Virus record (IMG/VR): IMGVR_UViG_3300029913_000001
Reading direction: 5' to 3' (one strand)
Length of the DNA stretch: 64,000 nt
Source of the DNA: a virus
Taxonomy: Duplodnaviria; Caudoviricetes
Each line of letters begins with the position of its first letter. Positions within the stretch are counted from its first letter, which is position 1. The notes below the pieces were generated by a model. The model did not search any database. It was not told where the DNA came from and saw nothing but the letters and a program-made list of their open reading frames with translations. Positions 24,913 through 60,462 of this stretch are shown here, piece by piece. A program made the position numbers and the translations under genes.

Positions 24913-27174
24913 TTATTTCTCCTGTACCGGTTTCTTAATGGAAATAGGAAAAGTATTAATTGCTGTTCCAATTACAAGATTATTACCCACCCAATCTAAA
25001 TTAACAGTCGCTCCGTTTGGAATGATTCCGTTTAATAGTTTAACGCTAAGTGGATATCTAATTAAAGAATCAATAATACCAGAAATCTTTCTTGCCCCAT
25101 ATTCATTACTCTTATTTAGCTCGAGCACATGGCTGATAAGATTTTCAGTCGCAATAATAGTTAAATTTTTATCGGTAAGCGCAGCGATTTCTGCAATTTT
25201 TGTTTGTGCGATTTTACGATAACTAAGATCGTCCAAACTATTATATTCAATCATAGCTGTAATGCGTCCTCGGATTTCAGTGAGGAAAACATTATTAATA
25301 GCCTTTGTAACTGCACTCATGCCATTTGAGTCCGGAATAAAACCTAAATTAATCTTACTCTTTTCTCGACTGCCTACATTACTACTCATAATAATAATTG
25401 TATTTTTGCAATCGGCTGTTTTTCCACTGGCACTTGAAATAGTACCTTCATCCATCATCTGAAGAAGCAAGGTGTATAAATTTGGATTTGCTTTTTCGAT
25501 TTCGTCGAAAAGAATAACCGAATTTGGATGCTTCATTAAATCGTTGATAAGTTTGCCTTCTCCTGCATCCCCATCCCCATATCCTTTATATCCAGGGGGC
25601 GCACCGATTAATGTCGCCATTGCGTGATCTGCCTGATATTCACTCATATCGTAACGAAGTAAATGCATATTCATATACGATGCAAGTTGCTTTGCGGTGT
25701 AAGATTTACCTACGCCGCTAGGGCCGGTTAGTAAAAAACTACCAATGGGTTTAGATGGATCTCGCAACCCGGCTTGTGAAATAATTAGGGACTCGGCAAT
25801 TTTATCAATTGCATGTGTCTGATGGAAAATTTTTGAATTTAGGGTCTCTCGAATATTAAGAATATCGGCCGCGTTATTCTGATCAGTCGTCTTAACCAAA
25901 ATGCCGGTACTAGTTTCGATCTCTCGAATAATATCCAATTTTGTAATACGCTTATTCTTATCTTTAGCAACCGTTTTACGGGCGCAAGCAGAATCGATCA
26001 GATCAATTGCTTTATCTGGAAGCTGCCGATCTGGCTGATAACGAACGGATAATTCGACTGCGGCTTCGATTGCATCGTCCTGAATACGGCATTTATGGAA
26101 TTTATTAAAACTGTTCTTAACTCCTTGAAGAATTAAAATAGTTTCTGCTTTACTCGGTTCCTTTAGAGCAAGCAATCGAAACCTACGCATAAGAGCGGTA
26201 TCTTTCTTAAATGTCTGGGTATATCCATCCCATGTAGTTGCTGCAATAACTTTAATATTACCGCGACTAAGTTCAGGTTTCAACATTGCTGAAAAGGCAA
26301 CACCGGAATCATTTGAGCCGCCTCCGGAATTAATCTGTTGAGCCTCATCTATAAAAAGAATGGCATTTTTTTCATTAACTAATGCGGCTAAGACATTCTT
26401 AATCTTTTCCTCAAAATCTCCTCGGAAATGGCAACCGGCTAAAACCGATCCAACATCTAGACTATAAATAATCTTATCTTTTAAAGTACTGGGTACAATA
26501 CCCGCATTAATATTACGAGCTAATCCTTCAATTAATTCCGATTTACCTACTCCAGGTTCCCCAACCACAAGTACATTATTCTTTTTCTTCTTCGACAGTG
26601 CATGTGCAATGTCAAACAATTCAATTTCCCGGCCAATTAGCACATCGGTAGTACCTTTAACTTTTTCATTTAAATTCACACAAAATTCAGCTAATGCGGT
26701 AGTTGACTGTGTATCAGACGTTGTTAATTGATCTAGTCCGTCAATAATTTTGGAAGTAATGCCGTATTTCTCTAGAAAATAACTAGCATACGACTCCTTT
26801 TCGTTATATAACTTACGAAAAATATCACCAAAAGTTACTTCTCTGCCATATTTTGTGGCTTCGGAGTAAGCCGAAACTAAAACTTTTTGCACCGAGGCTG
26901 TAATTTGCCCAGTCATAATATTCGGCTCGTTACTGGCAATTTTATTTTGAAGTCTAGGAGTTTGTGCTTCGATAAACTTTTTGATGGCCTCAGCCATCAA
27001 ACTAACCGAAACTCCCTGATTTTCGAGATACTTCCGGACAGATGAATACGACAAACTTGCATAAAGAATATGTTCGAGAGTAATAGTTGTTTGATCTAAA
27101 TTAATAGCAAGCTGAAAACTAATATCAATAAGATTCTTAATTAACGGCGATCCGTTCGAAGTAGCAGTTGGCAT
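24913..27174 (-). CDS. clpA: ClpA/ClpC-like Hsp100 AAA+ unfoldase
   Basis: Clp N-domain (EHILYA), Walker A motifs GEPGVGKS and GPSGVGKS, LFIDE and LFDEIEKA, and a ClpP-docking LGF loop (KINLGFIP). Confidence 0.85.
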   Translation of the reverse strand: MPTATSNGSPLIKNLIDISFQLAINLDQTTITLEHILYASLSYSSVRKYLENQGVSVSLMAEAIKKFIEAQTPRLQNKIASNEPNIMTGQITASVQKVLVSAYSEATKYGREVTFGDIFRKLYNEKESYASYFLEKYGITSKIIDGLDQLTTSDTQSTTALAEFCVNLNEKVKGTTDVLIGREIELFDIAHALSKKKKNNVLVVGEPGVGKSELIEGLARNINAGIVPSTLKDKIIYSLDVGSVLAGCHFRGDFEEKIKNVLAALVNEKNAILFIDEAQQINSGGGSNDSGVAFSAMLKPELSRGNIKVIAATTWDGYTQTFKKDTALMRRFRLLALKEPSKAETILILQGVKNSFNKFHKCRIQDDAIEAAVELSVRYQPDRQLPDKAIDLIDSACARKTVAKDKNKRITKLDIIREIETSTGILVKTTDQNNAADILNIRETLNSKIFHQTHAIDKIAESLIISQAGLRDPSKPIGSFLLTGPSGVGKSYTAKQLASYMNMHLLRYDMSEYQADHAMATLIGAPPGYKGYGDGDAGEGKLINDLMKHPNSVILFDEIEKANPNLYTLLLQMMDEGTISSASGKTADCKNTIIIMSSNVGSREKSKINLGFIPDSNGMSAVTKAINNVFLTEIRGRITAMIEYNSLDDLSYRKIAQTKIAEIAALTDKNLTIIATENLISHVLELNKSNEYGARKISGIIDSLIRYPLSVKLLNGIIPNGATVNLDWVGNNLVIGTAINTFPISIKKPVQEK

Positions 27175-27219
27175 AATGTCCCTTTCATTTATAAGTATAA
27201 AACATTATTCATACGTAAG

Positions 27220-27810
27220 TCAAGAGAAAAACGAAACTAACTGAATAAAAAGATCTCCTCGCAGTTTTGTTTTTCGATTGAATAAACCAGCATCGGGTAT
27301 TCGATAAATTGTTTTTGATTTACATCTTTTCGGTATCGAAATTCGGAATCGTACGCCATCGGGTCCAATTATTGTTATTTCCCCGCCTACTATACTCTTC
27401 CAAAAAGATACTCGAATTTTTTGAATTAATTTATCGGCTATTACAATAAAATCATTGGGCATTTCTACCTTAATTTTTGCTTGCAAAATAGAAAATCGAT
27501 CTTCCTCTAGCTGAATATTTCGAAAACATAACGATTCTCCAGTTTTAATACCGGCAGGTATTGATAATCGAAAGGTTCGATTACCATCATTGGACATAAA
27601 ATATCGTTCACATCCTAATATAGAATCTTGTAAAGATATCGCAATTTTAATCTGAAAAATTGTATTAAGACATTTGTTATATTCAAGATTCAGCAAATTA
27701 AATTTTTCTGCGGCTAGCGGATCAGTTGGATGTAAATCTGGATGGCATTCTTTTGCCAATTTTCGATAATTAGAGTGAATTTGATTGAAAAAGATAGAAG
27801 AGTTAGGCAT
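27220..27810 (-). CDS. J-domain co-chaperone (DnaJ/CbpA-like)
   Basis: YRKLAKECHPD J-domain and a DnaJ C-terminal-like region ending in RGDLFI. Confidence 0.8.
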   Translation of the reverse strand: MPNSSIFFNQIHSNYRKLAKECHPDLHPTDPLAAEKFNLLNLEYNKCLNTIFQIKIAISLQDSILGCERYFMSNDGNRTFRLSIPAGIKTGESLCFRNIQLEEDRFSILQAKIKVEMPNDFIVIADKLIQKIRVSFWKSIVGGEITIIGPDGVRFRISIPKRCKSKTIYRIPDAGLFNRKTKLRGDLFIQLVSFFS

Positions 27811-27833
27811 TATTCACCCCGTGCTAATTAGAT

Positions 27834-28286
27834 TTAAATTCGATATTGTAATTCCTTCTCAGTTTCTTGCTTAACTATAAATTTAATAGGTGGGCATAAT
27901 CCATTCCAAAATTCTGGTGTGCCATCTGGCATTTTTTTTCTTAGTGCATCATTTGTTACAATTAATTCTACTTCTCTCCAAGCCAAGCTCGATCTCGATT
28001 CATGCAGGGATAAAATTTCAAATCGAAATTTGTCTTTTCCTCTTAAGGTAATTTCTTCATTTAATGTCTTACAACTACCGGTATATTTTTTCCAATTCGA
28101 TTCATTTATTACTTTTTTTCTATTTGTTCTGTTTTTAATTTTTTTTCGGGTTGTCATAAAAAAGAATTTCTTGCCGATATATTTGCGATTGGTATCTATA
28201 CATGTAATTTTATACACAAAGCCAATCCATTCAGTTGGATCAAAATTAAATGGAAATTCCCAATGTCCTATGTCTATTTTTTCCAT
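27834..28286 (-). CDS. GIY-YIG nuclease-like protein
   Basis: GFVYKIT...KYIGKK and NWKKYTGS motifs. Confidence 0.7.
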   Translation of the reverse strand: MEKIDIGHWEFPFNFDPTEWIGFVYKITCIDTNRKYIGKKFFFMTTRKKIKNRTNRKKVINESNWKKYTGSCKTLNEEITLRGKDKFRFEILSLHESRSSLAWREVELIVTNDALRKKMPDGTPEFWNGLCPPIKFIVKQETEKELQYRI

Positions 28287-35587: not shown

Positions 35588-38500
35588 TTATTGATTCAAA
35601 GTTAATGCCATTATTAAGCTGTTTTGTGGTTGTATATTAGTATTTAATAGAGAAGAATCTATTTTAAGATTCGACCCATAATTGACTAACTCTAATTGTT
35701 TTTGATTCCAGGATAAATCGTTAATATATGTTACTGAATTAACCGCTTCGAAAGTAATAGTTGGACTAGCCTCGTTATTTAACGATTCAAATCCATAAAT
35801 TATTGGAGTGTATGGTAAATTAAAATATGGATCTCCTGCTAAATTTCTAGGGAATGGCTGATTTGGAATAGGAATTATTATTGTTCCCGGCGTATATCTA
35901 GTAATGCCTGTCGTCCATCGTAATTCATCGAGGTATCCAGAAAAAATATTTGCACCTGAAATTTCAGCTCCTATAGTTAGACTTGAATCCGAAAAAATTG
36001 GTAACCCAATATTTGCGACAGATTCGTTTAACATTCCATTAAAATATATATAAAGATTATTGCCGTTGCCCTGTACAGTAATATAAGTCCAGTCATTGAT
36101 AGTTACTGGGAGAAGACTAGATATGAATGCATTACTTGTGTTTTCACCAAAGCAAATATAATTTGCACTATTTTTATAAATAACCATCCCATTATTACTA
36201 GAATTATTTAACCGGGTATCAATCAACGTCATAATATTTGAATTGATATTTGAAAAGTTACAGAAAAATTCAATAGTAAAAATATTGGAAGTATTTCCTA
36301 AATCATTTATATCAGGACTTGCTTGATTTGCCGTTATATACTGGGATGATGCGCCCCCAAAATACCCGGACGAATTTCCAAACCTAGCATTGACCATAGA
36401 TAATCCTGTATTAGTTATAAGATTTGGATGCCATGCAACATTAAGAGATGTAAACTCAGAATCGTCATCTATATCATATAGAGATCCGGTTGGAATTGAG
36501 TACGTTTGAACCATGTCTCCGCCATTAACAAAAACACCTGGATACTCCACGTTATTCATTAATAGTCGCGCCTGATTTGCAAACATATTATTTGTTGGTT
36601 CATATAATGCTGTAATTCTATTCATTGCCGTTGATTCAGCAATAGAATTATTATTTGCTATATTTCTTTGGAAATTAACACTAAATGTCGCGCCGTAACC
36701 AATAGAATTCACGGTAATATCAGTCGTTAACACATTTGCGATGTTGGACGGAAAAGAAGTATAATATTCGTCTTCTGCGGGTACTAATGAAAAAGTTGAT
36801 ATAGAATTATTATGTGAACTATCAATCGATGTAACTAATATAGTTGCACTATTTGAATATGTTCCTCCTTCCAAGTTTAATAGGTCAAATACTTTATAAT
36901 GCTGTCCGGAGTTAACTAGCTCAACATTAGCAACTGAAAAAATTGCACCTTCAACGAAAGCGCTATTGGCGGTATCATATAAGACCGAGCTAACAGGATA
37001 AGAAACATTCGCATCTAGATATTCGATGGAAGAACTTACACGATCAAAGCGCAATGTCGTATCTATTGACCTAATAAGACTACTATTGTTAATGTAATTA
37101 TTGTTCCATGCTGAATAAACTGGTAATTGTAAGGTTACTGGATCCGAACTAACAGATCCGTCTGGGGTTCTAATAAACCCGTTAACGGTATCTATTACAG
37201 GAAGGAAGGGAATAGTTATATTTCCGTTGGAATATACAGGAATATTATTACCATTTATATAGGTATACGCGGTATTAAACGGTATTCCGTTATAATTTGG
37301 TCCCAGTACGTATGGATAAGTTGGTACATTATTGTTATCAACTGTAATAAAATATGCATAAATTCCGTTTGGATATTCCGGGGTAACACATTGACGACCA
37401 TTATTTTCGTCTAATGTACCTAAATTAGCAACATAATTAAAATCTTGAATATATTTGCCGGAAGGCGCCGAATAAATTGCTAACTGCAAGCCGTTAACAA
37501 TAGGTTGCCCACTCGCATCTAATCTAGGGATTAATGACAACTCATAACTACTAGTATTTTTAATTATTCCCCCGGTGCCATTGGCATTTGCAAATCCGTA
37601 TGGGCCATAAATTGGACTACCGTCCCATGCATATCCTATTATTGGGCTATGAGAAGAAGAATTTTTAGTGTATAACAAATACGGATCCGAAAAATATTGA
37701 AAAACACCATTTTCATTTGGATAACCGGCACCGGGGTCTAGACCATCTTGTATTGCTTCCCATACCGAATTTATTGTTAATGTTTGTTGATTTGCTATAT
37801 TTCCTAGTTGATAGAGTGTTTCGTTTTCACCACTGTTGGAGCTATAAAATGGAATTCCATTTGTAGCTAATGCCTCTGGCCCGTTAACATTAATAATAGT
37901 GGTAAATGTAGTATTGGCGGTTTGAATACTTTGTGGAAAGCCAAAGGACCAATTTTGCGGTTCTACCGCGGTTTCATCATCTACCTGAGGAAAGTTAGTT
38001 GCATAATTTGGTAACCCATTACTTGTAACATAAAAAGAGGTTGCGTCTGCGAAGACGCCGGTTATATTTGAAAACTGGCTTAGTTGTAACAGACCATTTG
38101 GTCGTACGTTATTAGTATATTCTAGAACAATATTTGCATAATTATTATCGTATTGTGCAGGTAAATCAAAATCTGATATTCCTATATTTGCATAATCGTC
38201 AGATGTGTATGTATCATTGAATTGACGTATTCGAGTATGGAATGGAGTAGTCTCTTGAATAAAATTTTCTATTGTTGATTGATTGTCTGGCTCATAATTT
38301 CCTTGAATATTAAGACTACGATTTGTATAATTCACAGATACGAAACTAGTTTTAAATAACCAATCAAGATTTTTATTTTCAGACATAATATATTGGATAA
38401 CCGCATAAAATGCCCGATCGGCAGCCTTAGTAAGATCATCGTTTCCAACTAAAATCATGTCGTTAAGAATGCTGGTTATCATTCTAATTTCGAGATATGG

Positions 38501-40567
38501 ATCATTATCAAATGGTTCCGCGTCAAAGGAAGACACATCAAACCCAATGCCAGAAGAAATAAAATCATAAAGATTTGGTAAAAATTGAATAGAGCCATTG
38601 TGAATTAAAATAGGTTCTAGTTCAAGTATATTTGAATCTAAAGAATTTGCGGTTGCTAGATATATGCTACTATTACCGTTTTCCCCATTAATTTGAACAA
38701 CGTCATTAAGTTTATAGGTAATTTGAGGAAGATCACCGATTGAATTTAGGCTGTAAGTTGGCTGAGTCGAAATATAATCTGGGGAATACCAATCAATATA
38801 TTTCCAGTTCTTACTAAGATCATATAATTGCGTTTGTACGATTTGCCACTCACCATTTGATACGGCTACTATTGACCAATAATTATTAAGAGTAGAATCT
38901 TCGGTTAATAAAATTCGGTAATTTTCAGGAAAAAGAGTAATGTCTAGTTGATTAAGAATAGTTCTATTCGACAGTTGTTGAGAAAAACCCGAAATAGGTA
39001 ATGGATCGCTCGCGCTTAATGCAGATATAATTGCGCTAGATGTCACTGCTAAATTTGCTAATTGTGAATTAATAACAGAATAATAAATGTCTAGTGCTGT
39101 TACTCGATTAACAAAAATTGATTGAACCGGGTTTTCTAAGATTCCGGTTTGCTGACTACTAGGTAATGTAATGTCGGGTACTAGAAGGTCGAATGAGGTA
39201 ACTCCAGTTAAACTATCGATAAATTTTTGATAGATTGGAGTGTGATACCATGACTTTGTACCATCGTTACTAATTAACGCAAATTCATTGTGGGGTTGAT
39301 TATCGGCAGATTCTAGAACATAATCTATATGTAAAATAACGGTGTTTGCAGATATAAATTGGTTAATATTCCACACAGCGACGGCATTAGTATCGATAGC
39401 CGTTAACATAGGAATTCCAGAATTTGGAATATTTGCCAAGGCAGATATTAATTGATCAGTAGACATATCATGTCTTGTACCGGGCAGAGTTTTATCATAT
39501 ACCCAGAATCCATAGGGAGCATTAGATGCTGCGTCAAATGTATATGGACAATTGGGGTCGGTTATATATCCGTTTGCATCCGAACTTGAATATGCTGCGG
39601 GTGGAACAGCGCTAGATACCCACTCATATACTTCGATTTGGGAGTTTGGGAACCATTGATTCCAATCAGATGCCCGTTGTGAAATCGTGCCTAATTGTGC
39701 ATTTACTGTCTTAAGATTTTGTGTCTTGAACCAGGTTTTTCCTAGTTGAGCGTTTCCCCATTTTTCATTACCCGGGCTAGTAAAGGTGTTTTTAGATTCA
39801 ATTAATGTCCATAACTTACTGTTAAAAACGCTTCCACTTTTTCCAGCGTGCAGGGCTTGATAAAGTAATCCACCGTAAAGCACACGATCGCTAATGTTAT
39901 ACAATGCTCCAGGCATCCAATTTGGAATATTATAAATTGCTGGATCATTGTCACATATATAATCTAAATTTTCATCAAGTGTACCTGGTAATATGCCAGA
40001 TGATAGGTCGACTACTTCTAGATCAACTAATTTAATTTTGGTAACAGAGTCATAAATCCAAGCTCTGCTTATGCTAGCCGGGTCAATAGGCAGCTCTTGT
40101 GAAGTTTCGACAGTCCAACCATGCGATAAATTTGTATTATTAAAAATTTTTATTGTTTCTTCGGGATTTGCCGAATCGGTAATAAAAATGTTTTCGATAT
40201 TTCCAGCATATATTAGATTCGGCTGAACACTTTTTTCTAGAATAATATTGTTAACAGGGGTAAGCTGAATTATATCCTGTGTAGAATCTACCCAGGTTCT
40301 TTTCGTTGTTAATACCTGATAAATTGTAATATTTTGAGCGGATTCAGTTGTTAATTCTATAAACTTATTTTGTAACCCATCAAAGTATGTACCGTCCAAA
40401 AAAGAATCTTCGGGGTTTGGCACGGATTGATTGTTTATAGTTTTAACGGTGCCAATAAGATCGGGTCCTAACCATTTGGTGTTTTGTCCCACTTGCTGAA
40501 ATACAGAGTCCGACGGAACAATAGAATCAACCAATACGAATTTACTGAATACGCTTTGACTTATCAC
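35588..40567 (-). CDS. Giant baseplate-wedge-like structural protein, part 2 (YHYH-like and LamG-like domains)
   Basis: 1659 aa; PIIGYAWDGSPIYGPYG...GTLDENNGR...YPNGIYAYF and FTIEFF...GYLDELRWT. Confidence 0.65.
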   Translation of the reverse strand: MISQSVFSKFVLVDSIVPSDSVFQQVGQNTKWLGPDLIGTVKTINNQSVPNPEDSFLDGTYFDGLQNKFIELTTESAQNITIYQVLTTKRTWVDSTQDIIQLTPVNNIILEKSVQPNLIYAGNIENIFITDSANPEETIKIFNNTNLSHGWTVETSQELPIDPASISRAWIYDSVTKIKLVDLEVVDLSSGILPGTLDENLDYICDNDPAIYNIPNWMPGALYNISDRVLYGGLLYQALHAGKSGSVFNSKLWTLIESKNTFTSPGNEKWGNAQLGKTWFKTQNLKTVNAQLGTISQRASDWNQWFPNSQIEVYEWVSSAVPPAAYSSSDANGYITDPNCPYTFDAASNAPYGFWVYDKTLPGTRHDMSTDQLISALANIPNSGIPMLTAIDTNAVAVWNINQFISANTVILHIDYVLESADNQPHNEFALISNDGTKSWYHTPIYQKFIDSLTGVTSFDLLVPDITLPSSQQTGILENPVQSIFVNRVTALDIYYSVINSQLANLAVTSSAIISALSASDPLPISGFSQQLSNRTILNQLDITLFPENYRILLTEDSTLNNYWSIVAVSNGEWQIVQTQLYDLSKNWKYIDWYSPDYISTQPTYSLNSIGDLPQITYKLNDVVQINGENGNSSIYLATANSLDSNILELEPILIHNGSIQFLPNLYDFISSGIGFDVSSFDAEPFDNDPYLEIRMITSILNDMILVGNDDLTKAADRAFYAVIQYIMSENKNLDWLFKTSFVSVNYTNRSLNIQGNYEPDNQSTIENFIQETTPFHTRIRQFNDTYTSDDYANIGISDFDLPAQYDNNYANIVLEYTNNVRPNGLLQLSQFSNITGVFADATSFYVTSNGLPNYATNFPQVDDETAVEPQNWSFGFPQSIQTANTTFTTIINVNGPEALATNGIPFYSSNSGENETLYQLGNIANQQTLTINSVWEAIQDGLDPGAGYPNENGVFQYFSDPYLLYTKNSSSHSPIIGYAWDGSPIYGPYGFANANGTGGIIKNTSSYELSLIPRLDASGQPIVNGLQLAIYSAPSGKYIQDFNYVANLGTLDENNGRQCVTPEYPNGIYAYFITVDNNNVPTYPYVLGPNYNGIPFNTAYTYINGNNIPVYSNGNITIPFLPVIDTVNGFIRTPDGSVSSDPVTLQLPVYSAWNNNYINNSSLIRSIDTTLRFDRVSSSIEYLDANVSYPVSSVLYDTANSAFVEGAIFSVANVELVNSGQHYKVFDLLNLEGGTYSNSATILVTSIDSSHNNSISTFSLVPAEDEYYTSFPSNIANVLTTDITVNSIGYGATFSVNFQRNIANNNSIAESTAMNRITALYEPTNNMFANQARLLMNNVEYPGVFVNGGDMVQTYSIPTGSLYDIDDDSEFTSLNVAWHPNLITNTGLSMVNARFGNSSGYFGGASSQYITANQASPDINDLGNTSNIFTIEFFCNFSNINSNIMTLIDTRLNNSSNNGMVIYKNSANYICFGENTSNAFISSLLPVTINDWTYITVQGNGNNLYIYFNGMLNESVANIGLPIFSDSSLTIGAEISGANIFSGYLDELRWTTGITRYTPGTIIIPIPNQPFPRNLAGDPYFNLPYTPIIYGFESLNNEASPTITFEAVNSVTYINDLSWNQKQLELVNYGSNLKIDSSLLNTNIQPQNSLIMALTLNQ

Positions 40568-40646
40568 AGATTACTCCCTCTTCTTATTTATCCCCAATTA
40601 TTGAGCTTGAATTGCCATATCTCTAACGGACATGGCAGTTCACGAT

Positions 40647-46600: not shown

Positions 46601-47969
46601 TTGTAAAAATAACATCGTTTAGATTGCCAATTGGACCATATGACAGCGGAAATCCCAATACAGAATCATTTAATCCTACTCCAATTTCATATGAAAAAAG
46701 ACTGCTGCCGGCAAAATCTGAATCTGGATAAAATGAAACATTAGCAAGACTATTACCATTCAGATCAAACACATCAAATAACGGCGCCTGATTAATACCG
46801 GTTTTATTCTGCGAGGATACAGCCCAATTTGATCCGTCAAATATTATTGTCTCATTGCTGCTTGTAACCAATGTACAATTATTCTCGACCGCGACTTGCG
46901 ATGGGGAAAGATGAATTACAAAGTTATTTGTATTATTTGGATCAATAAAATTAACGGTATAAAGTGTTGCTCGTACGTTGCTGTTTTTGTCGCCGGCAAA
47001 AATTACACTATCACCAGATTTTAGTGATGTACCATTATATGAAAAACTAGCTGCACCTTGTACAATTGAAAAAGCATTAGGTGTGTAAAAATCGACGTAT
47101 GTAACTGGTGATAGACCAATTCTTCCCTGATCAAATAAAACTAAAGGTATAAATTCAATTATTGGCCGATTTGCTGCTATGAAACTCTGGGGAGTATTTT
47201 CCAAGGACAGCGCTGATATTATAGCATTGACTGTATCTTTATGTACCCATAAGTTTGAGCGACTCCATAAATTAAGATCTGGAGCAGAACGGTTTATTGT
47301 CAAATAATCAGGAGGATTATTTTGATCGGCGGCAAACGAAGGAGTTAGAATGTTTGTTAACGGAATTAAAACAATTTCTTTTCCAACACCTTCAACAATA
47401 TAACTTACGTTAGCAATTGATACAATCATGCCGTCTAATAATGTTATATTATCTGATGTTATATAAGAAATATGGCCCTGCACATTATTAATAGAATCAT
47501 TAATTTCTATGCTATTATTCCAGTACCATGCATTAACGGATTGAATATTATCTACCGGTTGATACAGCCAATAATAATTTTGATAATTTATTAATTTGTC
47601 GATGTCGACAAATCCCTTCCAACTATACATTCCGGAAGTTAATATTCGAGCCCAGTCAGATACGATGCCATCTTTGTTTGAGGTAGCATTAAGTACATCA
47701 ATAAAATTAGAAATATTGGTTATGTTATTTTGGTCGTCTGTCGTAACAAACGCTGATTCTAATTGATAATTCTGCCTAGGCGCGGTTGACTCTAATAGGT
47801 AAGAGCCGTCTAGCAATGTGCCATTTTTCCATTGTCTTCCGATATAACCATTAAATCTAGATAGTTGTGGTGGGGAAGTTAGCACATCTAACGTGCTATC
47901 TAGAAATCTTTTATTCGGACGCGTTCGTAAATATGGCGGTAAAAAATCTATTGTTTTTGATATTGGCAT
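40647..47969 (-). CDS. Giant baseplate-wedge-like structural protein, part 1
   Basis: 2440-aa Asn/Ser/Thr-rich ORF with late-type ATAAATA 5 nt before the ATG, in the structural module. Confidence 0.7.
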   Translation of the reverse strand: MPISKTIDFLPPYLRTRPNKRFLDSTLDVLTSPPQLSRFNGYIGRQWKNGTLLDGSYLLESTAPRQNYQLESAFVTTDDQNNITNISNFIDVLNATSNKDGIVSDWARILTSGMYSWKGFVDIDKLINYQNYYWLYQPVDNIQSVNAWYWNNSIEINDSINNVQGHISYITSDNITLLDGMIVSIANVSYIVEGVGKEIVLIPLTNILTPSFAADQNNPPDYLTINRSAPDLNLWSRSNLWVHKDTVNAIISALSLENTPQSFIAANRPIIEFIPLVLFDQGRIGLSPVTYVDFYTPNAFSIVQGAASFSYNGTSLKSGDSVIFAGDKNSNVRATLYTVNFIDPNNTNNFVIHLSPSQVAVENNCTLVTSSNETIIFDGSNWAVSSQNKTGINQAPLFDVFDLNGNSLANVSFYPDSDFAGSSLFSYEIGVGLNDSVLGFPLSYGPIGNLNDVIFTNNYVSDTFSYLTTGTNPQSIIIGRAHQIDSISHDESIYDAWQYVNGDRQLYQNTVAFGSNIIRMVGTLLNGLSPQIFVDGTKLSADQFTVVQLGEKIVVTIKFDLISVNSVVFLKIQSATPITNAWYDVPSAFSNNPLGQSLPVLTMSNIRDHATTSQVNANDSSRIIDLQLNSYQGVAGSMLYQESLPILPALLLTNPQFDIDQAIRSAGEDYISFKQKLINTFSQISNAQNLSSKQVVDTALQTIASIYTSGQPWASSDMCYWGGKQTSITVSNVRAVTFNLTQVYNWNASNYQSLQVYINGTQLTYGIDYKTTDNILTILRTLNLKDLINIYEISNTSGSFIPATPTKLGLAAAFIPQMYIDYTYQTPRKVIQGHDGSITECFNDYRDNLLLDYELRVYNNLKVNNQQWVDIIETRVHQTSKFATGVYSEAEQLNISQRMFYEWTAQYNISSDNNFYDENNLFTWNWNSSLDKFGQPLLGYWRGIYDWFYNSENVNTRPWEMLNLSIKPSWWDATYGPAPYTGENNVMWNDIANGIIRNPNGISLSSYGTRVGMLDVIPVNENGILLNPNEAVVGTFNNSSSPDGFIYGDCGPVETAWKRSSIYPFSRLRALILQNPLFMLGTTWDMNNYTPTNGAYQFKFQNNFFASNNQIIINSVDATPVNSIVNYSVEYIRRNGQDPSILRTTLNSTFVELAYSMAGFTDVQNLSVFASPNNPADVGAEEMIPDADYSLFLNTSTPVGTINYSGVIISIAGNNTGYKITGYNRNNPYFTIYAAATTAASIPLGVGNNNFTYPAIFSSKTTIIPYNTTLPDQQSVINFLAGYGQFLLTNGISFNVNIDQDKIDWSNAALQFVKWSLVNWGSNDLSLVLNPSSAIIEYTATSGTLYDLSDPLSSLVLDVNGNSVDPKYFDVYRTGNTVSITNQDGSVFACIAANIVNYEHRFVINNVSEFNDIIYDPVTGSRQNRLLISGQKTANWTGSLDIPGFILTTNQVDSWIPNKDYLLGAVVKWKNFNYIANSDIIGAASFQYSQFKRISTTFTNQLLPNLSLKAVDLSNAYNINYRPYLTDLVTLRNNTIGYVERDWLSSLGIDPAGQTNFYRGWIKEKGTVNALNSYGRGSTSKFNTQVSLNEEYAMKVGEYGATARTGYGDVSLPPSTNTQNPLVISFVSTPDINDTSTIQVTPFNLYEKSTNWQNDFIQNYGNLKLTNPKFIDGGPILPENIISQAYQKIPEFIESDEASLFFANISTMMQSTSQDNILKIAENQGSFWIESNTLADGPNQWDVITFTGANTKINSITQLTSNSISFGISTDIGVVKNDVIIIDHSDTNSNISIRGTFKILDYYIAPTANSYANLTIVGNFANSNISNISYVPAWDELSIWTNRSLRGKSIAESNISAVDDHIYVTTDSFGEAAYTLITPYATEIAYEDVINQDLVASLFYDSASQMIWSGKPSSADGFGEVEIRVLSQTITSNNIALPALDSKIYAIEPLNPTTFNLGRKVICHQGIGAISATTRYNNILTNIGQVYITQLNDLNVPIVTQILSGDGVTMPTLNNSNFGYNFAMSDNNWLYVSIQSMTAAGFAGIAVYSLQTVPLLSYSVLSTTSNSITVNNSILDEYSIKIVLNYPNAIPNILVPGIDYSISSGNVINIINPNIIISDSDIVSVSGLTKYYKFQGSLIDPTGQNSGFGTSMACDAAGEIIAVGVPQFNSNFGGIIIFNRVIEKTYKAAATANITTINPFSSISSITVNGQLLSPSKYSYPSDNPTNISFSPNLLAGSVIQIEGFCFALSQFIQPPNGTDYYFGMSLDVQNNQLIVGSPGSNNNTGAIYLYSLDTQLASTKSIPLSDLVLNTPSFNVNDWVITRSGTDALTLVNDINSLSNYSGITASIANNNLILFIDQTLQSTGITNFPYTWTNTEITFTPPAITGNIFRDRPPTSIFQALWSLKNSGGDLGNISPIIPPGIHHFSPMTTTAPLRGII

Positions 47970-54179: not shown

Positions 54180-54752
54180 TTATCCTCGAATCTTTCGAAT
54201 CATTTCAATATGCAGCCTTCCTAAATTAATAGCATCCGTTACTGCGCTATGCGGTTTTCCTTCGAATGTTAAATGAAGATATTTTAACGCATTTGCTAAC
54301 GTCAATTTTTTCTTGATCGAATAGTTACTTCGAAAAATAACACCCAAATCCCAAATACCGGTATTACCCCAAGGATTTTCAATATTATCTTTTAAACATT
54401 GCTCAATGATAGCATCATTGTCCGATCCCCATGCGTAAGAAACTTTTCCTCGCGGAGAAAATTCATTTCGAATGGTATTCATAACATCCGAAAATCGTCT
54501 CCCTTCTTTTAATAATAATTCTTTTGTTATTCCGGTGAGGTTAGTACAATACTCAGATACTTCAAAATCTTTATAATTCGGACGAATATAATAATTAGCT
54601 GTTCGAGTAATTTTCAAATCGTATGAGTCAATTTCACATATACCGACTTGAATGATATGCTTCGATTGGCCCAATGGGCATTTTCCATCCGGCCAGCATA
54701 ACATTTCTAAATCCATAAAACTAATTTTTTGTGATGATAAATTCTTTGTCAT
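54180..54752 (-). CDS. DEDDh 3'-5' exonuclease (ERI-1/KapD-like)
   Basis: FMDLEM, IIQVGI, LTGIT, WGSDND and HSAVTDA motifs. Confidence 0.85.
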   Translation of the reverse strand: MTKNLSSQKISFMDLEMLCWPDGKCPLGQSKHIIQVGICEIDSYDLKITRTANYYIRPNYKDFEVSEYCTNLTGITKELLLKEGRRFSDVMNTIRNEFSPRGKVSYAWGSDNDAIIEQCLKDNIENPWGNTGIWDLGVIFRSNYSIKKKLTLANALKYLHLTFEGKPHSAVTDAINLGRLHIEMIRKIRG

Positions 54753-55621: not shown

Positions 55622-55779
55622 TCGGATAATTTTTCTATCAAAATATAATTTTTAGCTTCGATTTCAGTATCAAATACTCGTAAAAATTGGGCGAGCCCTC
55701 GATAATCTAAGCGATAAACTAGCCATCTATCGCATATTAATATAGGTGGCAAAATTTCATATGTATATTCAGTATTCAT
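55618..55779 (-). CDS. Small protein (53 aa), KLSE-tail family; not in the ORF track
   Basis: MNTEYTYE...FDTEIEAKNYILIEKLSE. Confidence 0.6.
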   Translation of the reverse strand: MNTEYTYEILPPILICDRWLVYRLDYRGLAQFLRVFDTEIEAKNYILIEKLSE

Positions 55780-55799
55780 ACAATTTGTATACCCCGTTT

Positions 55800-56143
55800 C
55801 TTTTACATAGGCGGGGTCACCCTACGGCGCACAGTTTTTAGGCTAGTGCGAGCTCGCGATTGCTAATTTTTACAGGGTACGTAAAAATCTTGGTCGCGCC
55901 ATTGACGATTGAATCGGCAATTATACATATCATTTTTCAATTATGGGCGAAAATAACAAAGACCCAAGCCGTCCACATGACTTTCATTTATCCGTCGAAA
56001 CCGTGACGCGCCCTAGTAGAATACTGGGGTGTAACACCACATCCATCTAATACGAAACTATCTAACTAGTTCAGTATTCTTTTGGACGCGCGGAGAGTTG
56101 AACTCCGGTCCGCATAAAGAAATTCATGCTTCGTACGACTCTA
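55800..56143 (-). ncRNA. ssrA: Circularly permuted (two-piece) tmRNA
   Basis: T-arm CGGAG-TTCAACT-CTCCG and 3' acceptor strand CGCGTCC-A (56107-56083) lie upstream of the 5' strand GGGCGCG-TCACGGTTTCGAC (from 56013). G3-U70 pair; P2 pairings between the pieces; resume GCC at 55918 after ATAATT; tag ends at TAA 55840-55838. Confidence 0.88.
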
Positions 56144-56145
56144 AC

Positions 56146-56838
56146 TTATGCAAATTTTTTTTCGTTGATCATAATTGGTTTCGAATACAATTCTTTCATT
56201 ACTTTTGCATAACCGACTGAATTAGTACACAATGTCTTAAGATGATCCCGATATAATCTTTTTCTGAGTATTGCATGATGCCCTTCATCCAAATTAGTTA
56301 ATAAACCACCATTAGTTAAAAGTCCAAAAATATCGATTAATTTAGATTCAGCTTGAAATGCTTCTGCTTCAGTTAAACTTCCTTTAACTCGAAATACTAT
56401 ATGCTTTTCATTTAACGAATTTATAGATTGCAAAATTTTTCGATGTGTTTCATTTCGCCGCGAATTTTTATCACGATCATTTACTCCTTTTCCTATATAA
56501 AAAGGAACATACTCCATACCCAGGCTAGCGGCAAACGCGTCTTTTGCTTTTTCTAAATCAAGATCAAACAATGGATTCAAGTGAGCATACACAAAATATT
56601 TCTTTTCGTTTGATAATTCTAAATCTTCATAAATCGAGCTAATATCGGAATTCCATATAGAATTATATGCTTCGAATTTTGGACCCTGCCTAACGATATT
56701 CTCCGCTCCTAGACCATTCTTTTCTAACGCTCGAATTCTAGATTTTAAATATCGAACTTTACCTTTCAGCGAATCAATCGAATTCCAATTAACCTTAATA
56801 TTCACTTTTATTTCCTCAATATTTATAGTATACAACAA
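56146..56838 (-). CDS. GIY-YIG (LEM-3-like) endonuclease
   Basis: YFVYAH...FYIGKG...R and EAFQAESKLIDIFG...LTN motifs; late-type TATAAATA overlaps the annotated TTG start, so the true start is probably the GTG just downstream. Confidence 0.7.
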   Translation of the reverse strand: MLYTINIEEIKVNIKVNWNSIDSLKGKVRYLKSRIRALEKNGLGAENIVRQGPKFEAYNSIWNSDISSIYEDLELSNEKKYFVYAHLNPLFDLDLEKAKDAFAASLGMEYVPFYIGKGVNDRDKNSRRNETHRKILQSINSLNEKHIVFRVKGSLTEAEAFQAESKLIDIFGLLTNGGLLTNLDEGHHAILRKRLYRDHLKTLCTNSVGYAKVMKELYSKPIMINEKKFA

Positions 56839-57141: not shown

Positions 57142-57412
57142 ATCACTCCTAATATTAAGAAGATATCGAACGTTGGTATTTGCGCCTTACAAATATGATA
57201 CACCTTAAATAAGTCTAATTTAAGAATATTTGCAATCGGTGATACTCCATTCAGGATATCGATTTCTATCCTCGAGCTCGATACCATCTTAATTCTTTTA
57301 AATCAACTGCATAAAATCATATTATTTTTCATATTTAAAATTGGGGGCGCACGAAGCGATAATCAACATGCGCCGCCTCCACCACCGAATCAGAAAGGAT
57401 TCGGACTTATTA

Positions 57413-58073: not shown

Positions 58074-58332
58074 CAGTTAACCACGCAAGATTAATTTTTC
58101 GAATATTGGAAACTTGCTCGCCATTATCTAATAGACCATTCCAGATTGCGGAAAGCTCGCGGGCTGTTTGCTCGGGTACATCAATTGCGATAAATTCATT
58201 TGCTGCGCCATTATAAACATCGAAGGTATCAATGGGCGCAGAACTGTTTTGCGCAGGTACAACAATTACATGATTACCTGCTTCACGAATTTTAATAGCG
58301 ATTTCAGAATCAATTTCGTTCATCCAGTTCAT
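58042..58332 (-). CDS. Hypothetical protein
   Basis: ORF downstream of a TTGACT-17-TACACT promoter (58396-58368). Confidence 0.55.
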   Translation of the reverse strand: MNWMNEIDSEIAIKIREAGNHVIVVPAQNSSAPIDTFDVYNGAANEFIAIDVPEQTARELSAIWNGLLDNGEQVSNIRKINLAWLTGVPAGKRYAR

Positions 58333-58410
58333 AATGTCCTGCTTCCTGTGATTTTACTCACATTACCAGTGTAAACTATTTAGCATGAAAAGTCAAGCAA
58401 CATCCCAAAA

Positions 58411-58617
58411 TTATAGAGAAAATCGTTCAATCAAATTACGATCTCGAATAAACTCTTCGGCTTCCTTAAGAGAATTCTTCCCATAAAATCGATAATACTG
58501 AACTACTATCCTCCTACCGAAGGCCGAAGATTCGTCGTCCGAATATCTAGACTGAACTACAATTCGATATAGTGGGTTTTTATTCTTCGTTCCTGTTAGT
58601 TCGTAAAAATCAGGCAT
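58411..58617 (-). CDS. Hypothetical protein
   Basis: ORF; SLKEAEEFI segment similar to the small-protein family. Confidence 0.5.
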   Translation of the reverse strand: MPDFYELTGTKNKNPLYRIVVQSRYSDDESSAFGRRIVVQYYRFYGKNSLKEAEEFIRDRNLIERFSL

Positions 58618-58902
58618 TTATTCCTCTTCAAACAATTTCTTCAAAATAGGTAATGCACGACGATAAAACTTGGCGCGAACACGCGCATGATTCTTTCTCC
58701 AAAGAGCTAAAAAGTTTTCGTGGCGGTTCGAGTAATTCGGCGTTCCATATAGTTGCACGTTAAATCGAATCCGCTCAAGAACTCGGGAGGCCGCCTGGTC
58801 CGCTAATACTGATCCCAGGCCTTTCGATGTTACGTAATTTTTTCCGAAACACGAAACAACAACGGTCTTTTTAACCTTCATATTTTTACCGTAATGACTC
58901 AT
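58618..58902 (-). CDS. Hypothetical basic protein
   Basis: ORF in the early-gene run. Confidence 0.5.
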   Translation of the reverse strand: MSHYGKNMKVKKTVVVSCFGKNYVTSKGLGSVLADQAASRVLERIRFNVQLYGTPNYSNRHENFLALWRKNHARVRAKFYRRALPILKKLFEEE

Positions 58903-58938
58903 TCAAACACATCCATTTCTGCCTCAGTAATGAGGCAT

Positions 58939-59139
58939 TTATTCCTTTTCATATCCTTCAAACCACGGACCCATTCGGCGAGTTGCCTCCTTACCAGACG
59001 GGGTTTGCGTGGTCGCCGAACTAGTATCTTCACGCTTGCACCATTCTTGTGCTTGCTCCAAAGTATATCCTCGATACATGGTTCGTTTCCGCTTATTGGA
59101 ATCAGCATAATACCGAACGATTTTGTAGGTTTCAGCCAC
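58939..59139 (-). CDS. Hypothetical small phage protein
   Basis: YKIVRYY...GYTLEQAQEWC; directly follows cca. Confidence 0.6.
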   Translation of the reverse strand: MAETYKIVRYYADSNKRKRTMYRGYTLEQAQEWCKREDTSSATTQTPSGKEATRRMGPWFEGYEKE

Positions 59140-59142
59140 AGA

Positions 59143-60462
59143 TTATACCTTTCCGGAAGAAGCGGTAACCAACGCTACCGCTTCTTCCCTTGTAGTAACT
59201 ACGCCTTCGAGTTGAGCAGTTTCGACCGCTTCTAGCAAAGTCTTGAATACCGGGCCTGCCTTAAATCCCATAGCAAGCAAATCGTTTCCGGTGAGCAAAC
59301 GAACGGGATGAAGTTCATCCTTCATGTTGTCGCGAAACCCACGGCAAAAATTGTTTGCGGTGAGATCGCCATTACTACCAAGGCTGTCAACCCGGTTAAG
59401 TTCAAGCAGTTCAGAAAAATTTTCCATACGAACAAACCGCTTCATCTTTGACAACGACATCTTTTCCGTGTTAAAAAACCGCATATGATTTTCAACCAAA
59501 GACGACACCGTGCCGACAACTTCATTTGAAAACCGAAAATCACGAAGCAGCCGTTCAGCCATACGAGCCCCAACGTGCTCATGCCCGTGAAACTGATTAT
59601 GTCCGGTCTTTTCATTTGTCTTTGCTGTGACCGGCTTCCCTACATCGTGAAGCAAGGTTGCAAGCGCCAACGTAAGAGAGCAGCCGGATTCGAGCATAGA
59701 AAGCATCTTCATTGTATGCTGCCACACATCGCCTTCCGGATGCCACATTGAATTCTGCGTAACCCCATGCATATTGCACAGTTCCGGCATAAAATGAACT
59801 AGCAAACCGGTGGTGTCCATTGTCTGAAAAGCTACCTGTACATTACCGCCAGTAAGAATCTTTGCCAGTTCACCAGCAACACGATCAGCGGGCAAAGTCG
59901 TAACATCCTTCGAACGCAATGTCATTGCGGACACGGTAAGCGGATCAAGCATGAACCCCAAACGAGCTGCAAATCGAACGGCTCGCAGCAGGCGCAAAGC
60001 ATCTTCTTGAAACCGATCGCTAGGATTGCCGACCGTGCGCAAAACCTTATTTTCGAGGTCGGCAAGGCCATTAACAAAGTCAAATACCTTGCCCGATTCG
60101 TCCATCAGAAGTGCATTGACTGTAAAATCACGGCGCTTAACATCTTCCCTAGGATCCGTTGTAAACTTAACAGAATCCGGGCGGCGATTGTCAGAATACG
60201 CACCATCCTCGCGGAAGGTTGCAACTTCGAACTGCTCACCATTCACATTAACAACCGAAACGCCAAAATTCTTACCAACCAATTTCGAGGTAGAAAACAA
60301 TTCGGTGACCTGATCAGGAGTTGCACTCGTGGCCAGATCCCAATCATGAACCGGAAGATTCAACAGTGAATCTCGCACGCAACCACCCGCGAAGTAGGAT
60401 TCAAATCCCGCATTCTTAAGGGTGACTAGTGCTACCATCGCATTGTGATTCATCTCAACCAT
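59143..60462 (-). CDS. cca: CCA-adding tRNA nucleotidyltransferase with HD domain
   Basis: GGCVRD...HDWDLAT, EVATFR, DVKRRDFTVNA, RFQEDALRLLRAVRF and LLHDVGK motifs. Confidence 0.93.
   Translation of the reverse strand: MVEMNHNAMVALVTLKNAGFESYFAGGCVRDSLLNLPVHDWDLATSATPDQVTELFSTSKLVGKNFGVSVVNVNGEQFEVATFREDGAYSDNRRPDSVKFTTDPREDVKRRDFTVNALLMDESGKVFDFVNGLADLENKVLRTVGNPSDRFQEDALRLLRAVRFAARLGFMLDPLTVSAMTLRSKDVTTLPADRVAGELAKILTGGNVQVAFQTMDTTGLLVHFMPELCNMHGVTQNSMWHPEGDVWQHTMKMLSMLESGCSLTLALATLLHDVGKPVTAKTNEKTGHNQFHGHEHVGARMAERLLRDFRFSNEVVGTVSSLVENHMRFFNTEKMSLSKMKRFVRMENFSELLELNRVDSLGSNGDLTANNFCRGFRDNMKDELHPVRLLTGNDLLAMGFKAGPVFKTLLEAVETAQLEGVVTTREEAVALVTASSGKV

What the first reader, a model, noticed from the sequence alone, without database searches (positions are those of the whole stretch)
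24913..60462. Possible phage-private ribosome rescue and degradation circuit: tmRNA, CCA enzyme, ClpA-like unfoldase and J-domain protein
Seen: the tmRNA lacks an encoded CCA, and the phage encodes a CCA-adding enzyme (59143-60462). The tag is long and ends in -LALA rather than the usual -LAA. The Hsp100 at 24913-27174 keeps the LGF ClpP-docking loop and sits next to a J-domain gene. Established: ClpXP reads a terminal AA-COOH, ClpA also recognises ssrA tags, and many anti-phage systems cleave tRNA or stall ribosomes. Inference: the phage may mature its own tmRNA and route rescued peptides to its own ClpA, countering translation-targeting defence. No smpB is visible in this window.
Basis: inference. 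Interest (0 to 1): 0.7.

Follow-up and report, generated by a model that had tools for sequence, protein, structure and literature searches.

The report
Jumbo-phage tmRNA with long conserved tag
A giant peat-bog phage carries its own ribosome-rescue RNA whose unusually long peptide tag is conserved among related phages, plus a phage Clp protease module and a CCA-adding enzyme, but these genes are inherited independently and do not form one dedicated circuit.

Summary
The window is a piece of a T4-related jumbo phage known only from peat metagenomes. It holds three things. A two-piece (permuted) tmRNA lies at about 56140-55791 on the minus strand (Rfam 60 bits). Its tRNA-like domain is intact, with G3.U70, no encoded CCA and a 26-residue tag. 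A class II CCA-adding enzyme lies 3 kb away. A J-protein/ClpA gene pair lies 30 kb away.

They are not one co-inherited circuit. The J-ClpA pair is near-universal in this phage group (43 of 45 loci). It always travels with phage ClpP and ClpS (9/9 genomes) and usually ClpX (8/9). tmRNA (4/9) and the CCA enzyme (4/9) come and go independently. SmpB was found in none. The -LALA ending and the missing CCA are peculiar to this one phage.

The new result is that the long tag itself is conserved. Eight distinct related phages encode 23-27-residue tags with a shared [KED]-I-[FHY]-T-Y-x-V core kept through synonymous codon changes. More distant relatives have 10-13-residue AND...LAA tags. No bacterial tmRNA with this pattern was found. 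Which protease reads the tag is untested. An overlapping window of this scan noted the same stretch.

The parts
55747..56172 (-). Two-piece (circularly permuted) tmRNA gene, ARAGORN limits
   Evidence: ARAGORN. Rfam RF04321 60.3 bits over 55838-56140. An identical copy lies in metagenome contig L068.
56083..56140 (-). Acceptor piece: P2 3' strand, T-arm (56107-56091), 3' acceptor strand CGCGUCC (56090-56084), discriminator A (56083)
   Evidence: Rfam alignment, direct reading, script.
56014..56082 (-). Intervening segment removed on maturation. It begins with AAA at the place where CCA would be encoded.
   Evidence: Relatives have CCA (or CCU) here.
55791..56013 (-). Coding piece: 5' acceptor strand GGGCGCG (G3.U70), GGUUUCGAC element, hairpin/PK1 region, tag frame, terminal hairpin
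55838..55918 (-). Tag reading frame: resume codon GCC after UAUAAUU, 26 codons, then UAA. Product ADSIVNGATKIFTYPVKISNRELALA.
   Evidence: Homologous 23-27-residue tags occur in seven other phage lineages.
55791..55817 (-). Terminal hairpin with the conserved loop CCU.UGUAAAAGAAA. The stem covaries among relatives.
   Evidence: It resembles the last hairpin of the Rfam alpha and beta tmRNA models.
59143..60462 (-). Class II CCA-adding tRNA nucleotidyltransferase with an HD domain (439 aa)
   Evidence: Pfam, NCBIfam, motifs in the translation. Orthologues lie at the syntenic place in L087, L089 and L093.
24913..27174 (-). ClpA-type double-ring AAA+ unfoldase (753 aa)
   Evidence: Pfam AAA_2, AAA_lid_9, ClpB_D2-small. 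TIGR02639 ClpA is the best NCBIfam model. End-to-end alignment to E. coli ClpA. 56 IMG/VR relatives.
25339..25347 (-). LGF tripeptide (residues 610-612), the ClpP-docking loop
   Evidence: Aligned to IGL of E. coli ClpA. GF is invariant in relatives; the family consensus is IGF.
27220..27810 (-). Short J-domain protein (196 aa): J domain without helix I, HPD at residues 23-25 (27744-27736), DnaJ C-terminal domain, no G/F or zinc-finger region
   Evidence: Pfam, translation, alignment. It lies directly upstream of ClpA in 43 of 45 loci and in Atu_ph07, PA5oct and Phosso.
54180..54752 (-). RNase T/DnaQ-like exonuclease. This is the syntenic anchor used to find the tmRNA of relatives.

Best explanation
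The window carries three separately inherited auxiliary modules of a T4-related jumbo phage, not one circuit.

(1) J-protein/ClpA gene pair. It belongs to a phage-encoded Clp system (ClpA, ClpS, one or two ClpP, usually ClpX) that is a hallmark of this jumbo-phage group. ClpA keeps its Walker motifs, aromatic pore loops and the ClpP-docking loop, so it most likely works as a ClpAP(S) protease. The J protein (HPD intact) would recruit host DnaK or hand over clients. These roles are inferred.

(2) A two-piece tmRNA of a phage-resident lineage. It has everything needed for charging by AlaRS (G3.U70, discriminator A) and for entry into stalled ribosomes. No SmpB was found in any relative, so it most likely depends on host SmpB, EF-Tu, AlaRS and the processing RNases. 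It adds a 26-residue tag. The tag's central [KED]-I-[FHY]-T-Y-x-V core is under peptide-level selection, and its last residues vary apart from a final Ala. The tag is most likely a degron whose specificity has moved away from the C-terminal LAA read by ClpX towards an internal motif, as in the long Lon-directed Mycoplasma tag. Candidates are phage ClpXP, phage ClpAP, host Lon, or an adaptor.

(3) A CCA-adding/repair enzyme. It serves phage tRNAs in general. In this one phage it (or the host enzyme) must also add CCA to the tmRNA acceptor piece, because the gene has AAA there.
For: tmRNA anatomy.

Conserved long tag:
- Eight distinct tags of 23-27 aa were recovered and aligned.
- The window and L089 tags share 14 of 26 residues, and 7 of those use different codons.
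- The acceptor stems covary at positions 4-7, with G3.U70 invariant.
- More distant relatives have AND...LAA tags of 10-13 aa.
- A scan of 185,579 species genomes for the tag pattern gave 48 hits, none of them a tmRNA.
- The window tmRNA fits no bacterial subtype model above its cut-off.

Independent inheritance: ClpP 9/9, ClpS 9/9, ClpX 8/9, tmRNA 4/9, CCA enzyme 4/9, SmpB 0/9. Within the sub-clade, tmRNA and CCA enzyme vary separately.

J-ClpA adjacency: 43/45 loci and cultured phages.

ClpA features.

Precedents: huge phages are known to carry tmRNA, SmpB and CCA-adding enzymes (PMC7162821). The 27-aa Mycoplasma tag is read by Lon (PMC8403727).
Against: - The rest of this phage's genome could not be searched, so ClpP, ClpS, ClpX and SmpB are inferred from relatives only.
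- Nothing here shows that the tag is a degron.
- Only one contig, the window itself, links a long-tag tmRNA and a ClpA physically. For relatives the link rests on shared samples and similar divergence.
- The window sub-clade's ClpA has an altered D1 pore-1 loop (C-[HKRN]-[FYL]-R instead of S-K-Y-R). D1 pore-1 is the loop that engages ssrA in E. coli ClpA. This is compatible with co-adaptation of ClpA and tag, and so with the rival reading.
- Absence of tmRNA or of the CCA enzyme in fragments is weak evidence.
Confidence: 0.6

Rival explanations
1. First reader's circuit. The phage matures its own tmRNA with its own CCA enzyme, and the long tag delivers rescued chains specifically to phage ClpA-ClpP. 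This bypasses host ClpXP and counters defences that target translation.
For: - All parts are on one contig.
- The tmRNA needs CCA addition.
- The tag is phage-specific and conserved, and 5 of 8 tags lack the AA-COOH ending.
- ClpA degrades ssrA substrates in E. coli through its D1 pore loops (PMC8666677). Exactly this loop differs in the long-tag sub-clade.
- The phage group has its own ClpP.
Against: - ClpA, ClpP and the J protein are just as conserved in phages without tmRNA.
- tmRNA and the CCA enzyme do not co-vary.
- Only this one phage lacks the encoded CCA.
- ClpS is present in 9/9 genomes and antagonises ssrA degradation by ClpA in E. coli.
- ClpX is present in 8/9 genomes.
- No SmpB was found anywhere.
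- The pore-loop difference is one phylogenetic event and is not uniform (HFR, KFR, RYR, NLR).
Confidence: 0.17
2. The phage tmRNA is a competitor or decoy. It takes stalled ribosomes (and SmpB) away from host tmRNA and adds a tag that host ClpXP/SspB does not read. Rescue is thereby uncoupled from host proteolysis, or from a host sensing pathway.
For: - The tags lack the SspB-type AANDENY-like start and mostly lack the LAA end.
- A phage tmRNA-like RNA (DS6A) inhibits endogenous tmRNA when expressed in E. coli (PMC11915505).
- The tmRNA depends on host SmpB (no phage SmpB found).
Against: - A conserved 7-residue core and a constant length of about 26 residues point to a binding partner, not mere loss of recognition.
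- All tags keep a hydrophobic ending with a final Ala, as degrons do.
- More distant relatives keep fully canonical degrons.
Confidence: 0.12
3. The window's tmRNA is a decaying copy (low Rfam score, no CCA, odd tag) with no function.
For: It scores only 60 bits against 85-142 bits for relatives. CCA is lost.
Against: - All structural elements are intact and the stems covary.
- The tag frame stays open and is conserved at the peptide level in eight lineages.
- The sequence is present in peat metatranscriptome contigs.
Confidence: 0.04

Closest known systems
Two-piece (permuted) tmRNAs of Alpha- and Betaproteobacteria, and the phage tmRNAs already catalogued (79 phage entries in the tmRNA database, PMC11915505; Sinorhizobium jumbo phages AP-J-162 and Phosso)
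   Same: Gene order (acceptor piece, intervening segment, coding piece), T-arm, G3.U70, the UAUAAUU-GCN resume context, and a terminal hairpin with a CCU.GUAA.AGAA loop. It sits in a jumbo phage that also carries Clp genes.
   Different: The tag is 26 residues, against a modal 10, and has no AND start. It has a conserved internal I-F-T-Y-x-V core and a variable ending. No CCA is encoded. It fits none of the alpha, beta or cyano subtype models above their cut-offs.
[quoted passage not shown]
   Same: A long tag that goes with a change of protease specificity. Internal residues matter, not only the C-terminus.
   Different: No sequence similarity. No Lon was found in five related phage genomes.
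E. coli ClpAPS protease
   Same: End-to-end homology of ClpA, with two AAA+ rings and a docking tripeptide. ClpS and ClpP are encoded by all related phages.
   Different: About 35% identity, below the NCBIfam equivalog cut-off. The D1 pore loop is HFR instead of KYR. It is paired in an operon-like arrangement with a J-domain protein, which bacterial clpA is not known to be (my knowledge).
DnaJ-ClpA gene pair of cultured jumbo phages Atu_ph07, PA5oct and Phosso (annotated, function untested)
   Same: Same adjacency and orientation.
   Different: The J protein here is shortened (196 aa; helix I, G/F and the C-terminal tail are missing) compared with 264-289 aa in most relatives.
Bacterial class II CCA-adding enzymes with an HD domain (E. 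coli Cca type), and the CCA-adding enzymes of huge phages (PMC7162821)
   Same: Head, neck and HD domains and the catalytic motifs.
   Different: Just below the NCBIfam cut-off. In this phage it lies 3 kb from a tmRNA gene that lacks CCA.

Membership tests
tmRNA, permuted form (Rfam RF04321) | Covariance-model score above the gathering cut-off, with the tRNA-like domain in permuted order | tested here: met
   60.3 bits against a cut-off of 47; model positions 1-213 all matched. ARAGORN agrees.
tmRNA, permuted form (Rfam RF04321) | Alanine identity: 7-bp acceptor stem with G3.U70 and discriminator A | tested here: met
   GGGCGCG pairs with CGCGUCC, then A. The stem covaries in six relatives with G.U kept.
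tmRNA, permuted form (Rfam RF04321) | Tag frame that starts with an Ala resume codon and ends in a stop | tested here: met
   GCC followed by 25 further sense codons, then UAA.
tmRNA, permuted form (Rfam RF04321) | Encoded 3' CCA (usual but not universal) | tested here: not met
   AAA follows the discriminator. The tmRNA database states that CCA is not always encoded.
tmRNA, permuted form (Rfam RF04321) | Dedicated partner SmpB in the same genome | not testable with these tools
   No whole genome is held. There is none in the window and none in 9 related genomes.
Canonical ssrA degron | C-terminal [LV]AA-COOH read by ClpX | tested here: not met
   The window's tag ends in LALA. Only 3 of the 8 clade tags end in AA.
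ClpA (Hsp100 class I, ClpP-binding) | Two AAA+ modules with Walker A/B, and no ClpB/ClpC-type middle domain | tested here: met
   GxxGxGK and DE are invariant in both rings. 753 aa align to the 758-aa E. coli ClpA without a large gap.
ClpA (Hsp100 class I, ClpP-binding) | ClpP-docking [ILV]-G-[FL] loop in D2 | tested here: met
   LGF at 610-612 aligns to IGL. GF is invariant.
ClpA (Hsp100 class I, ClpP-binding) | NCBIfam equivalog score | tested here: not met
   TIGR02639 scores 630.5 bits against a cut-off of 993, yet it is the best-scoring model. This is a diverged member.
ClpA (Hsp100 class I, ClpP-binding) | ClpP partner encoded or available | not testable with these tools
   Not in the window. 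Present in 9/9 related genomes.
J-domain protein (Hsp40) | HPD tripeptide between helices II and III | tested here: met
   H23-P24-D25, invariant in 12 relatives.
J-domain protein (Hsp40) | Complete four-helix J domain | tested here: inconclusive
   Pfam matches only profile positions 15-48 of 63. Helix I is missing compared with longer relatives.
J-domain protein (Hsp40) | Class A features (G/F region, zinc-finger domain) | tested here: not met
   Only DnaJ and DnaJ_C are found. The alignment shows the linker deleted.
Class II CCA-adding enzyme | Head-domain motifs A-D, including EDxxR, and the family score | tested here: inconclusive
   The motifs are read in the translation. NF009814 scores 285.7 bits against a cut-off of 290; PcnB models score lower. 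Activity was not tested.

The most novel reading that the evidence does not exclude
A clade of peat jumbo phages maintains its own tmRNA lineage. Its roughly 26-residue tag, with a conserved [KED]-I-[FHY]-T-Y-x-V core, is a private degron read by phage-encoded Clp machinery (ClpA with its altered D1 pore loop, or phage ClpX, possibly with ClpS or the J protein). During infection, the fate of rescued nascent chains would then be decided by the phage and not by host ClpXP/SspB.
Probability: 0.2. Interest if true: 0.75.

Novelty: new variant of a known kind. Interest (0 to 1): 0.5.

Why it matters
Phage tmRNAs, phage CCA enzymes and phage Clp genes have each been listed before, but nobody has tested what a phage tmRNA tag does. 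Here a family of long phage tags is under peptide-level selection, differs from all bacterial tags searched, and sits in phages that own ClpA, ClpS, ClpP and ClpX. This gives a concrete, testable case of a virus possibly rewriting the link between ribosome rescue and proteolysis. It would also offer new orthogonal degron/protease pairs. In addition, the near-universal J-protein/ClpA pairing in jumbo phages is an unstudied chaperone-protease coupling.

Tried and rejected
- Near and distant DNA searches of the tmRNA-CCA region against GenBank phages found no match.
- An exact tmRNA core pattern in IMG/VR gave nothing.
- The CCA enzyme as a query in IMG/VR returned no relative.
- No whole genome is held for this window, and metagenome records could not be searched whole. 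ClpP, ClpX, ClpS and SmpB of this very phage therefore remain unknown.
- Walking 10 kb past the window's right end (L169) found no Clp gene.
- Complex prediction for ClpA with the J protein gave no verdict (score 0.04). I do not count this either way.
- ARAGORN missed three of the five clade tmRNAs first examined (L092-L094), and it also missed Phosso's. They were recovered with nhmmer and by reading the sequence.
- The proteins directly upstream of the tmRNA in the window, L089 and L093 are not homologous to one another, so there is no conserved tmRNA-linked protein.
- The promoter and terminator scan around the tmRNA was at chance level.
- Peat metatranscriptome contigs cover 55830-56144, including the intervening segment, and also the flanks. 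Contigs cannot show processing, CCA addition or even transcription with certainty.
- A weak SmpB-like stretch in G002 (17.6 bits, with an internal stop) is below the cut-off and I disregarded it.
- The genome-wide scan for the tag pattern hit a cyanobacterial protein gene (an ...ELAIIAARSVNGEIVTYPVVE... frame) and other chance sites, but no tmRNA. The pattern was narrow, so tags with other spacing would be missed.
- I considered a tmRNA fragment serving as an integration site. I rejected this because both pieces and the tag frame are complete.

Full report
WHAT IS THERE

The window is almost entirely transcribed on the minus strand. It belongs to a phage that is absent from GenBank phages. The phage recurs in peat metagenomes: the CCA-enzyme protein is found letter for letter on 22 contigs from JGI, ENA and Logan peat samples. 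CheckV estimates for related IMG/VR fragments imply genomes of about 350 kb. Earlier notes of this scan call it a T4-related jumbo phage.

ARAGORN and Rfam agree on a circularly permuted tmRNA. Reading the sequence gives these elements:
- a T-arm at 56107-56091;
- the 3' acceptor strand CGCGUCC, then discriminator A at 56083, then AAA where CCA would be;
- a 66-nt spacer;
- the 5' strand GGGCGCG (G3.U70);
- the GGUUUCGAC element and a hairpin/PK1 region;
- the resume context UAUAAUU-GCC;
- a 26-codon frame ending in UAA at 55840-55838;
- a terminal hairpin at 55817-55791.

Three kb upstream lies a class II CCA-adding enzyme with an HD domain.

Thirty kb away lies a ClpA-type unfoldase, separated from the tmRNA by giant virion and tail-fibre genes. 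It aligns end to end with E. coli ClpA, and its LGF falls on the IGL ClpP-docking loop. A 196-residue J-domain protein with an intact HPD lies directly upstream of it.

THE CLP MODULE IS GENERAL, NOT tmRNA-LINKED

The ClpA has 56 relatives on IMG/VR contigs at 36-59% identity, and relatives at about 35% identity in the cultured jumbo phages Phosso, Atu_ph07, PA5oct, Vibrio 2.275.O and SCTP-2.

A profile of the J protein finds a J-protein ORF on the same strand within 1.5 kb upstream of ClpA in 43 of 45 loci that have enough upstream DNA. All those inspected carry HPD. GenBank annotation shows the same DnaJ-ClpA pair in Atu_ph07 and PA5oct, and in Phosso with a peptide deformylase gene in between.

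I searched nine large records: three IMG/VR genomes that are 91-100% complete, one that is 53% complete, and five GenBank genomes.

| Gene | Records with it |
|---|---|
| ClpP | 9/9, often two copies |
| ClpS | 9/9 |
| ClpX | 8/9 |
| Lon | 0/5 |
| SmpB | 0/9 |
| Permuted tmRNA | 4/9 |
| CCA enzyme | 4/9 |

tmRNA and the CCA enzyme occur in every combination. Phosso has both. G003-G005 have tmRNA only. Atu_ph07, 2.275.O and G002 have the CCA enzyme only. PA5oct and SCTP-2 have neither.

A 126-kb contig that appears to belong to the lineage closest to the window (inferred from matching contig lengths and samples) carries ClpX, an Hsp20 and ClpS side by side. A T4-type PNKP and two RNA ligases follow.

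So the J-ClpA pair is part of a phage Clp system that exists whether or not a tmRNA is present. Two further points weigh against it. In E. coli, ClpS competes with ssrA substrates for the D1 pore loops of ClpA (PMC8666677). ClpX, the usual ssrA reader, is also phage-encoded.

THE tmRNA: WHAT IS ORDINARY AND WHAT IS NOT

Huge phages with tmRNA, SmpB and CCA-adding enzymes are already described (PMC7162821). The tmRNA database lists 79 phage tmRNAs, gives 10 aa as the modal tag length, and notes that CCA is not always encoded.

The more distant relatives of this phage fit that picture. Their permuted tmRNAs are of beta or alpha type at 85-142 bits. Their tags are ANDEVYALAA, ANDELYALAA, ANDNSTMDIALAA, ANDSYYAMAA and ANDNVSTKVALAA. 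CCA is encoded, or CCU in one lineage.

The window's tmRNA is the outlier, so I looked for closer relatives through the neighbouring RNase T gene. ARAGORN found some of their tmRNAs. nhmmer and direct reading found the rest.

Eight distinct tags resulted:
- ADSIVNGATKIFTYPVKISNRELALA (window)
- ATSGINGSAKIFTYSVNLRNTELVNA
- AIKNDGIQKAEIFTYGVNLRNMEIAA
- AANRINGVNEIATYNVVRNQVNVPVLA
- ANTVDNTHSEDIHVFSMDVREMAIAA
- ANTVDNGQFGDIHTYEYALNPERVLVA
- AMNNNNGVKIYTYPVNLNEPSIA
- AVKSNVKEIHTVAVRRVKNFEPVAA

They are 23-27 residues long. They share an invariant Ile within a [KED]-I-[FHYA]-[TV]-[YFV]-x-[VMY] core, and all end in Ala.

The window and L089 tags share 14 of 26 residues, and seven of those are written with different codons. 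Other pairs behave alike. Selection therefore acts on the peptide.

The RNAs are functional by comparative criteria. Acceptor-stem positions 4-7 covary perfectly in seven sequences while G3.U70 stays fixed. The terminal hairpin keeps its loop and changes its stem by compensatory pairs.

A degenerate scan for the tag pattern in 185,579 species genomes gave 48 hits. None is a tmRNA. The window and L089 tmRNAs, the two clade members scanned, reach no alpha, beta or cyano subtype cut-off. This points to a long-resident phage lineage of tmRNA and not to a recent host capture. The caveat is that the pattern was narrow.

- The missing CCA is real but unique. All six clade relatives whose acceptor end could be read encode CCA.
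- The CCA enzyme sits at the syntenic place in the window, L087, L089 and L093, but not in L092 or L094, which do have tmRNA. L087 has the enzyme and no tmRNA was detected within the 10 kb fetched on either side of its RNase T gene.
- The enzyme is therefore best seen as a general tRNA 3'-end maturation and repair factor. Its presence, or the host's enzyme, allowed this tmRNA gene to lose CCA. Relatives without the enzyme encode CCA in their tRNA genes.
- The -LALA ending is not conserved. The core is.
- No SmpB was found anywhere, so the system is at most semi-private.

WHAT SPEAKS FOR A PRIVATE READER

The conserved internal motif and constant length suggest a binding partner. The best precedent is the 27-residue Mycoplasma tag that switched specificity to Lon (PMC8403727).

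One observation fits ClpA. The D1 pore-1 loop engages ssrA in E. coli ClpA. It is S-K-Y-R in almost the whole phage family, but C-H-F-R, C-K-F-R, C-R-Y-R or C-N-L-R in the window's sub-clade. That sub-clade also has LGF instead of IGF. This is a single clade-level change and is not uniform, so it is a hint only.

A complex prediction of ClpA with the J protein gave no verdict.

Peat metatranscriptome contigs contain the tmRNA region, including the unprocessed spacer, and also the flanks. They cannot show processing or CCA addition.

VERDICT

The most likely picture, at about 0.6, is three independent auxiliary modules. The tmRNA works with host SmpB and appends a phage-specific long tag whose reader is unknown.

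The private ClpA circuit remains possible at about 0.17. A broader reading, that the tag is read by any of the phage's own Clp machines, stands at about 0.2.

Novelty lies in the conserved long-tag family and in the near-universal J-ClpA pairing. The mere presence of tmRNA, CCA enzyme or Clp genes in a jumbo phage is not new.

Noticed in passing
window 57343-57404 (+): GGGGGCG ... CGCCUCC-ACCA forms a 7-bp alanine-type acceptor stem (G3.U70, discriminator A, encoded CCA). It stacks on a 5-bp GCGCA/UGCGC stem with a 14-nt loop and is followed by a 7-bp hairpin. It lies on the strand opposite to the genes. It is found only in contigs of the same phage (L068-L072), not in relatives. It could be a minihelix substrate or decoy for AlaRS or the CCA enzyme, or a relic of a tmRNA.
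   Followed up: partly
window 27834-28286 (-) and 56146-56838 (-); L093:6826-7602: GIY-YIG homing-endonuclease-like genes flank both modules. A SegE-type gene lies just upstream of the J gene. A weak LEM-3-like GIY-YIG gene ends 2 nt before the tmRNA, and a GIY-YIG-like ORF sits in the same position in L093. The proteins upstream of the tmRNA are not homologous between lineages.
   Followed up: partly
window 23096-23983 (-): A 295-aa protein with a DxD motif (phrog_1574, weak glycosyltransferase match) is conserved downstream of ClpA in 44 of 56 related loci. A 141-aa protein of unknown function (24322-24747) is conserved in 25 loci.
   Followed up: partly
window 26416-26430 (-), ClpA residues about 249-253: The D1 pore-1 loop reads H-F-R in the window and varies (KFR, RYR, NLR) in the closest relatives. 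About 45 other phage ClpA sequences keep K/R-Y-R.
   Followed up: partly
L167:10001-19825: A close relative carries ClpX, Hsp20 and ClpS in a row. A few kb on come a T4-type polynucleotide kinase-phosphatase, an Rnl2-like ligase and an Rnl1-like ligase, that is, a tRNA break-repair set next to the Clp genes.
   Followed up: no
L078 (Sinorhizobium phage Phosso, record 349596-350198): Phosso's permuted tmRNA has an intervening segment of about 460 nt and is missed by ARAGORN. ARAGORN also missed three of the first five peat-clade tmRNAs examined (L092-L094), so phage tmRNA counts based on ARAGORN alone are too low.
   Followed up: partly
L058:1534-1565, L085: One beta-type phage tmRNA lineage encodes CCU instead of CCA after the discriminator. 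Its genome (G004) has no CCA enzyme.
   Followed up: no
window 35588-47969 (-): Two giant virion structural proteins (1659 and 2440 aa; phrog_10938, baseplate-wedge-like segments) and tail-fibre-like genes lie between the Clp module and the tmRNA island. The J-ClpA pair thus sits among late structural genes, as in PA5oct.
   Followed up: no
window 61757-62047 (-): A 96-aa ORF with a weak RNA polymerase omega (Rpb6/RpoZ) match lies next to ThyX and a metallophosphoesterase. It is conserved in relatives (L068, L094).
   Followed up: no
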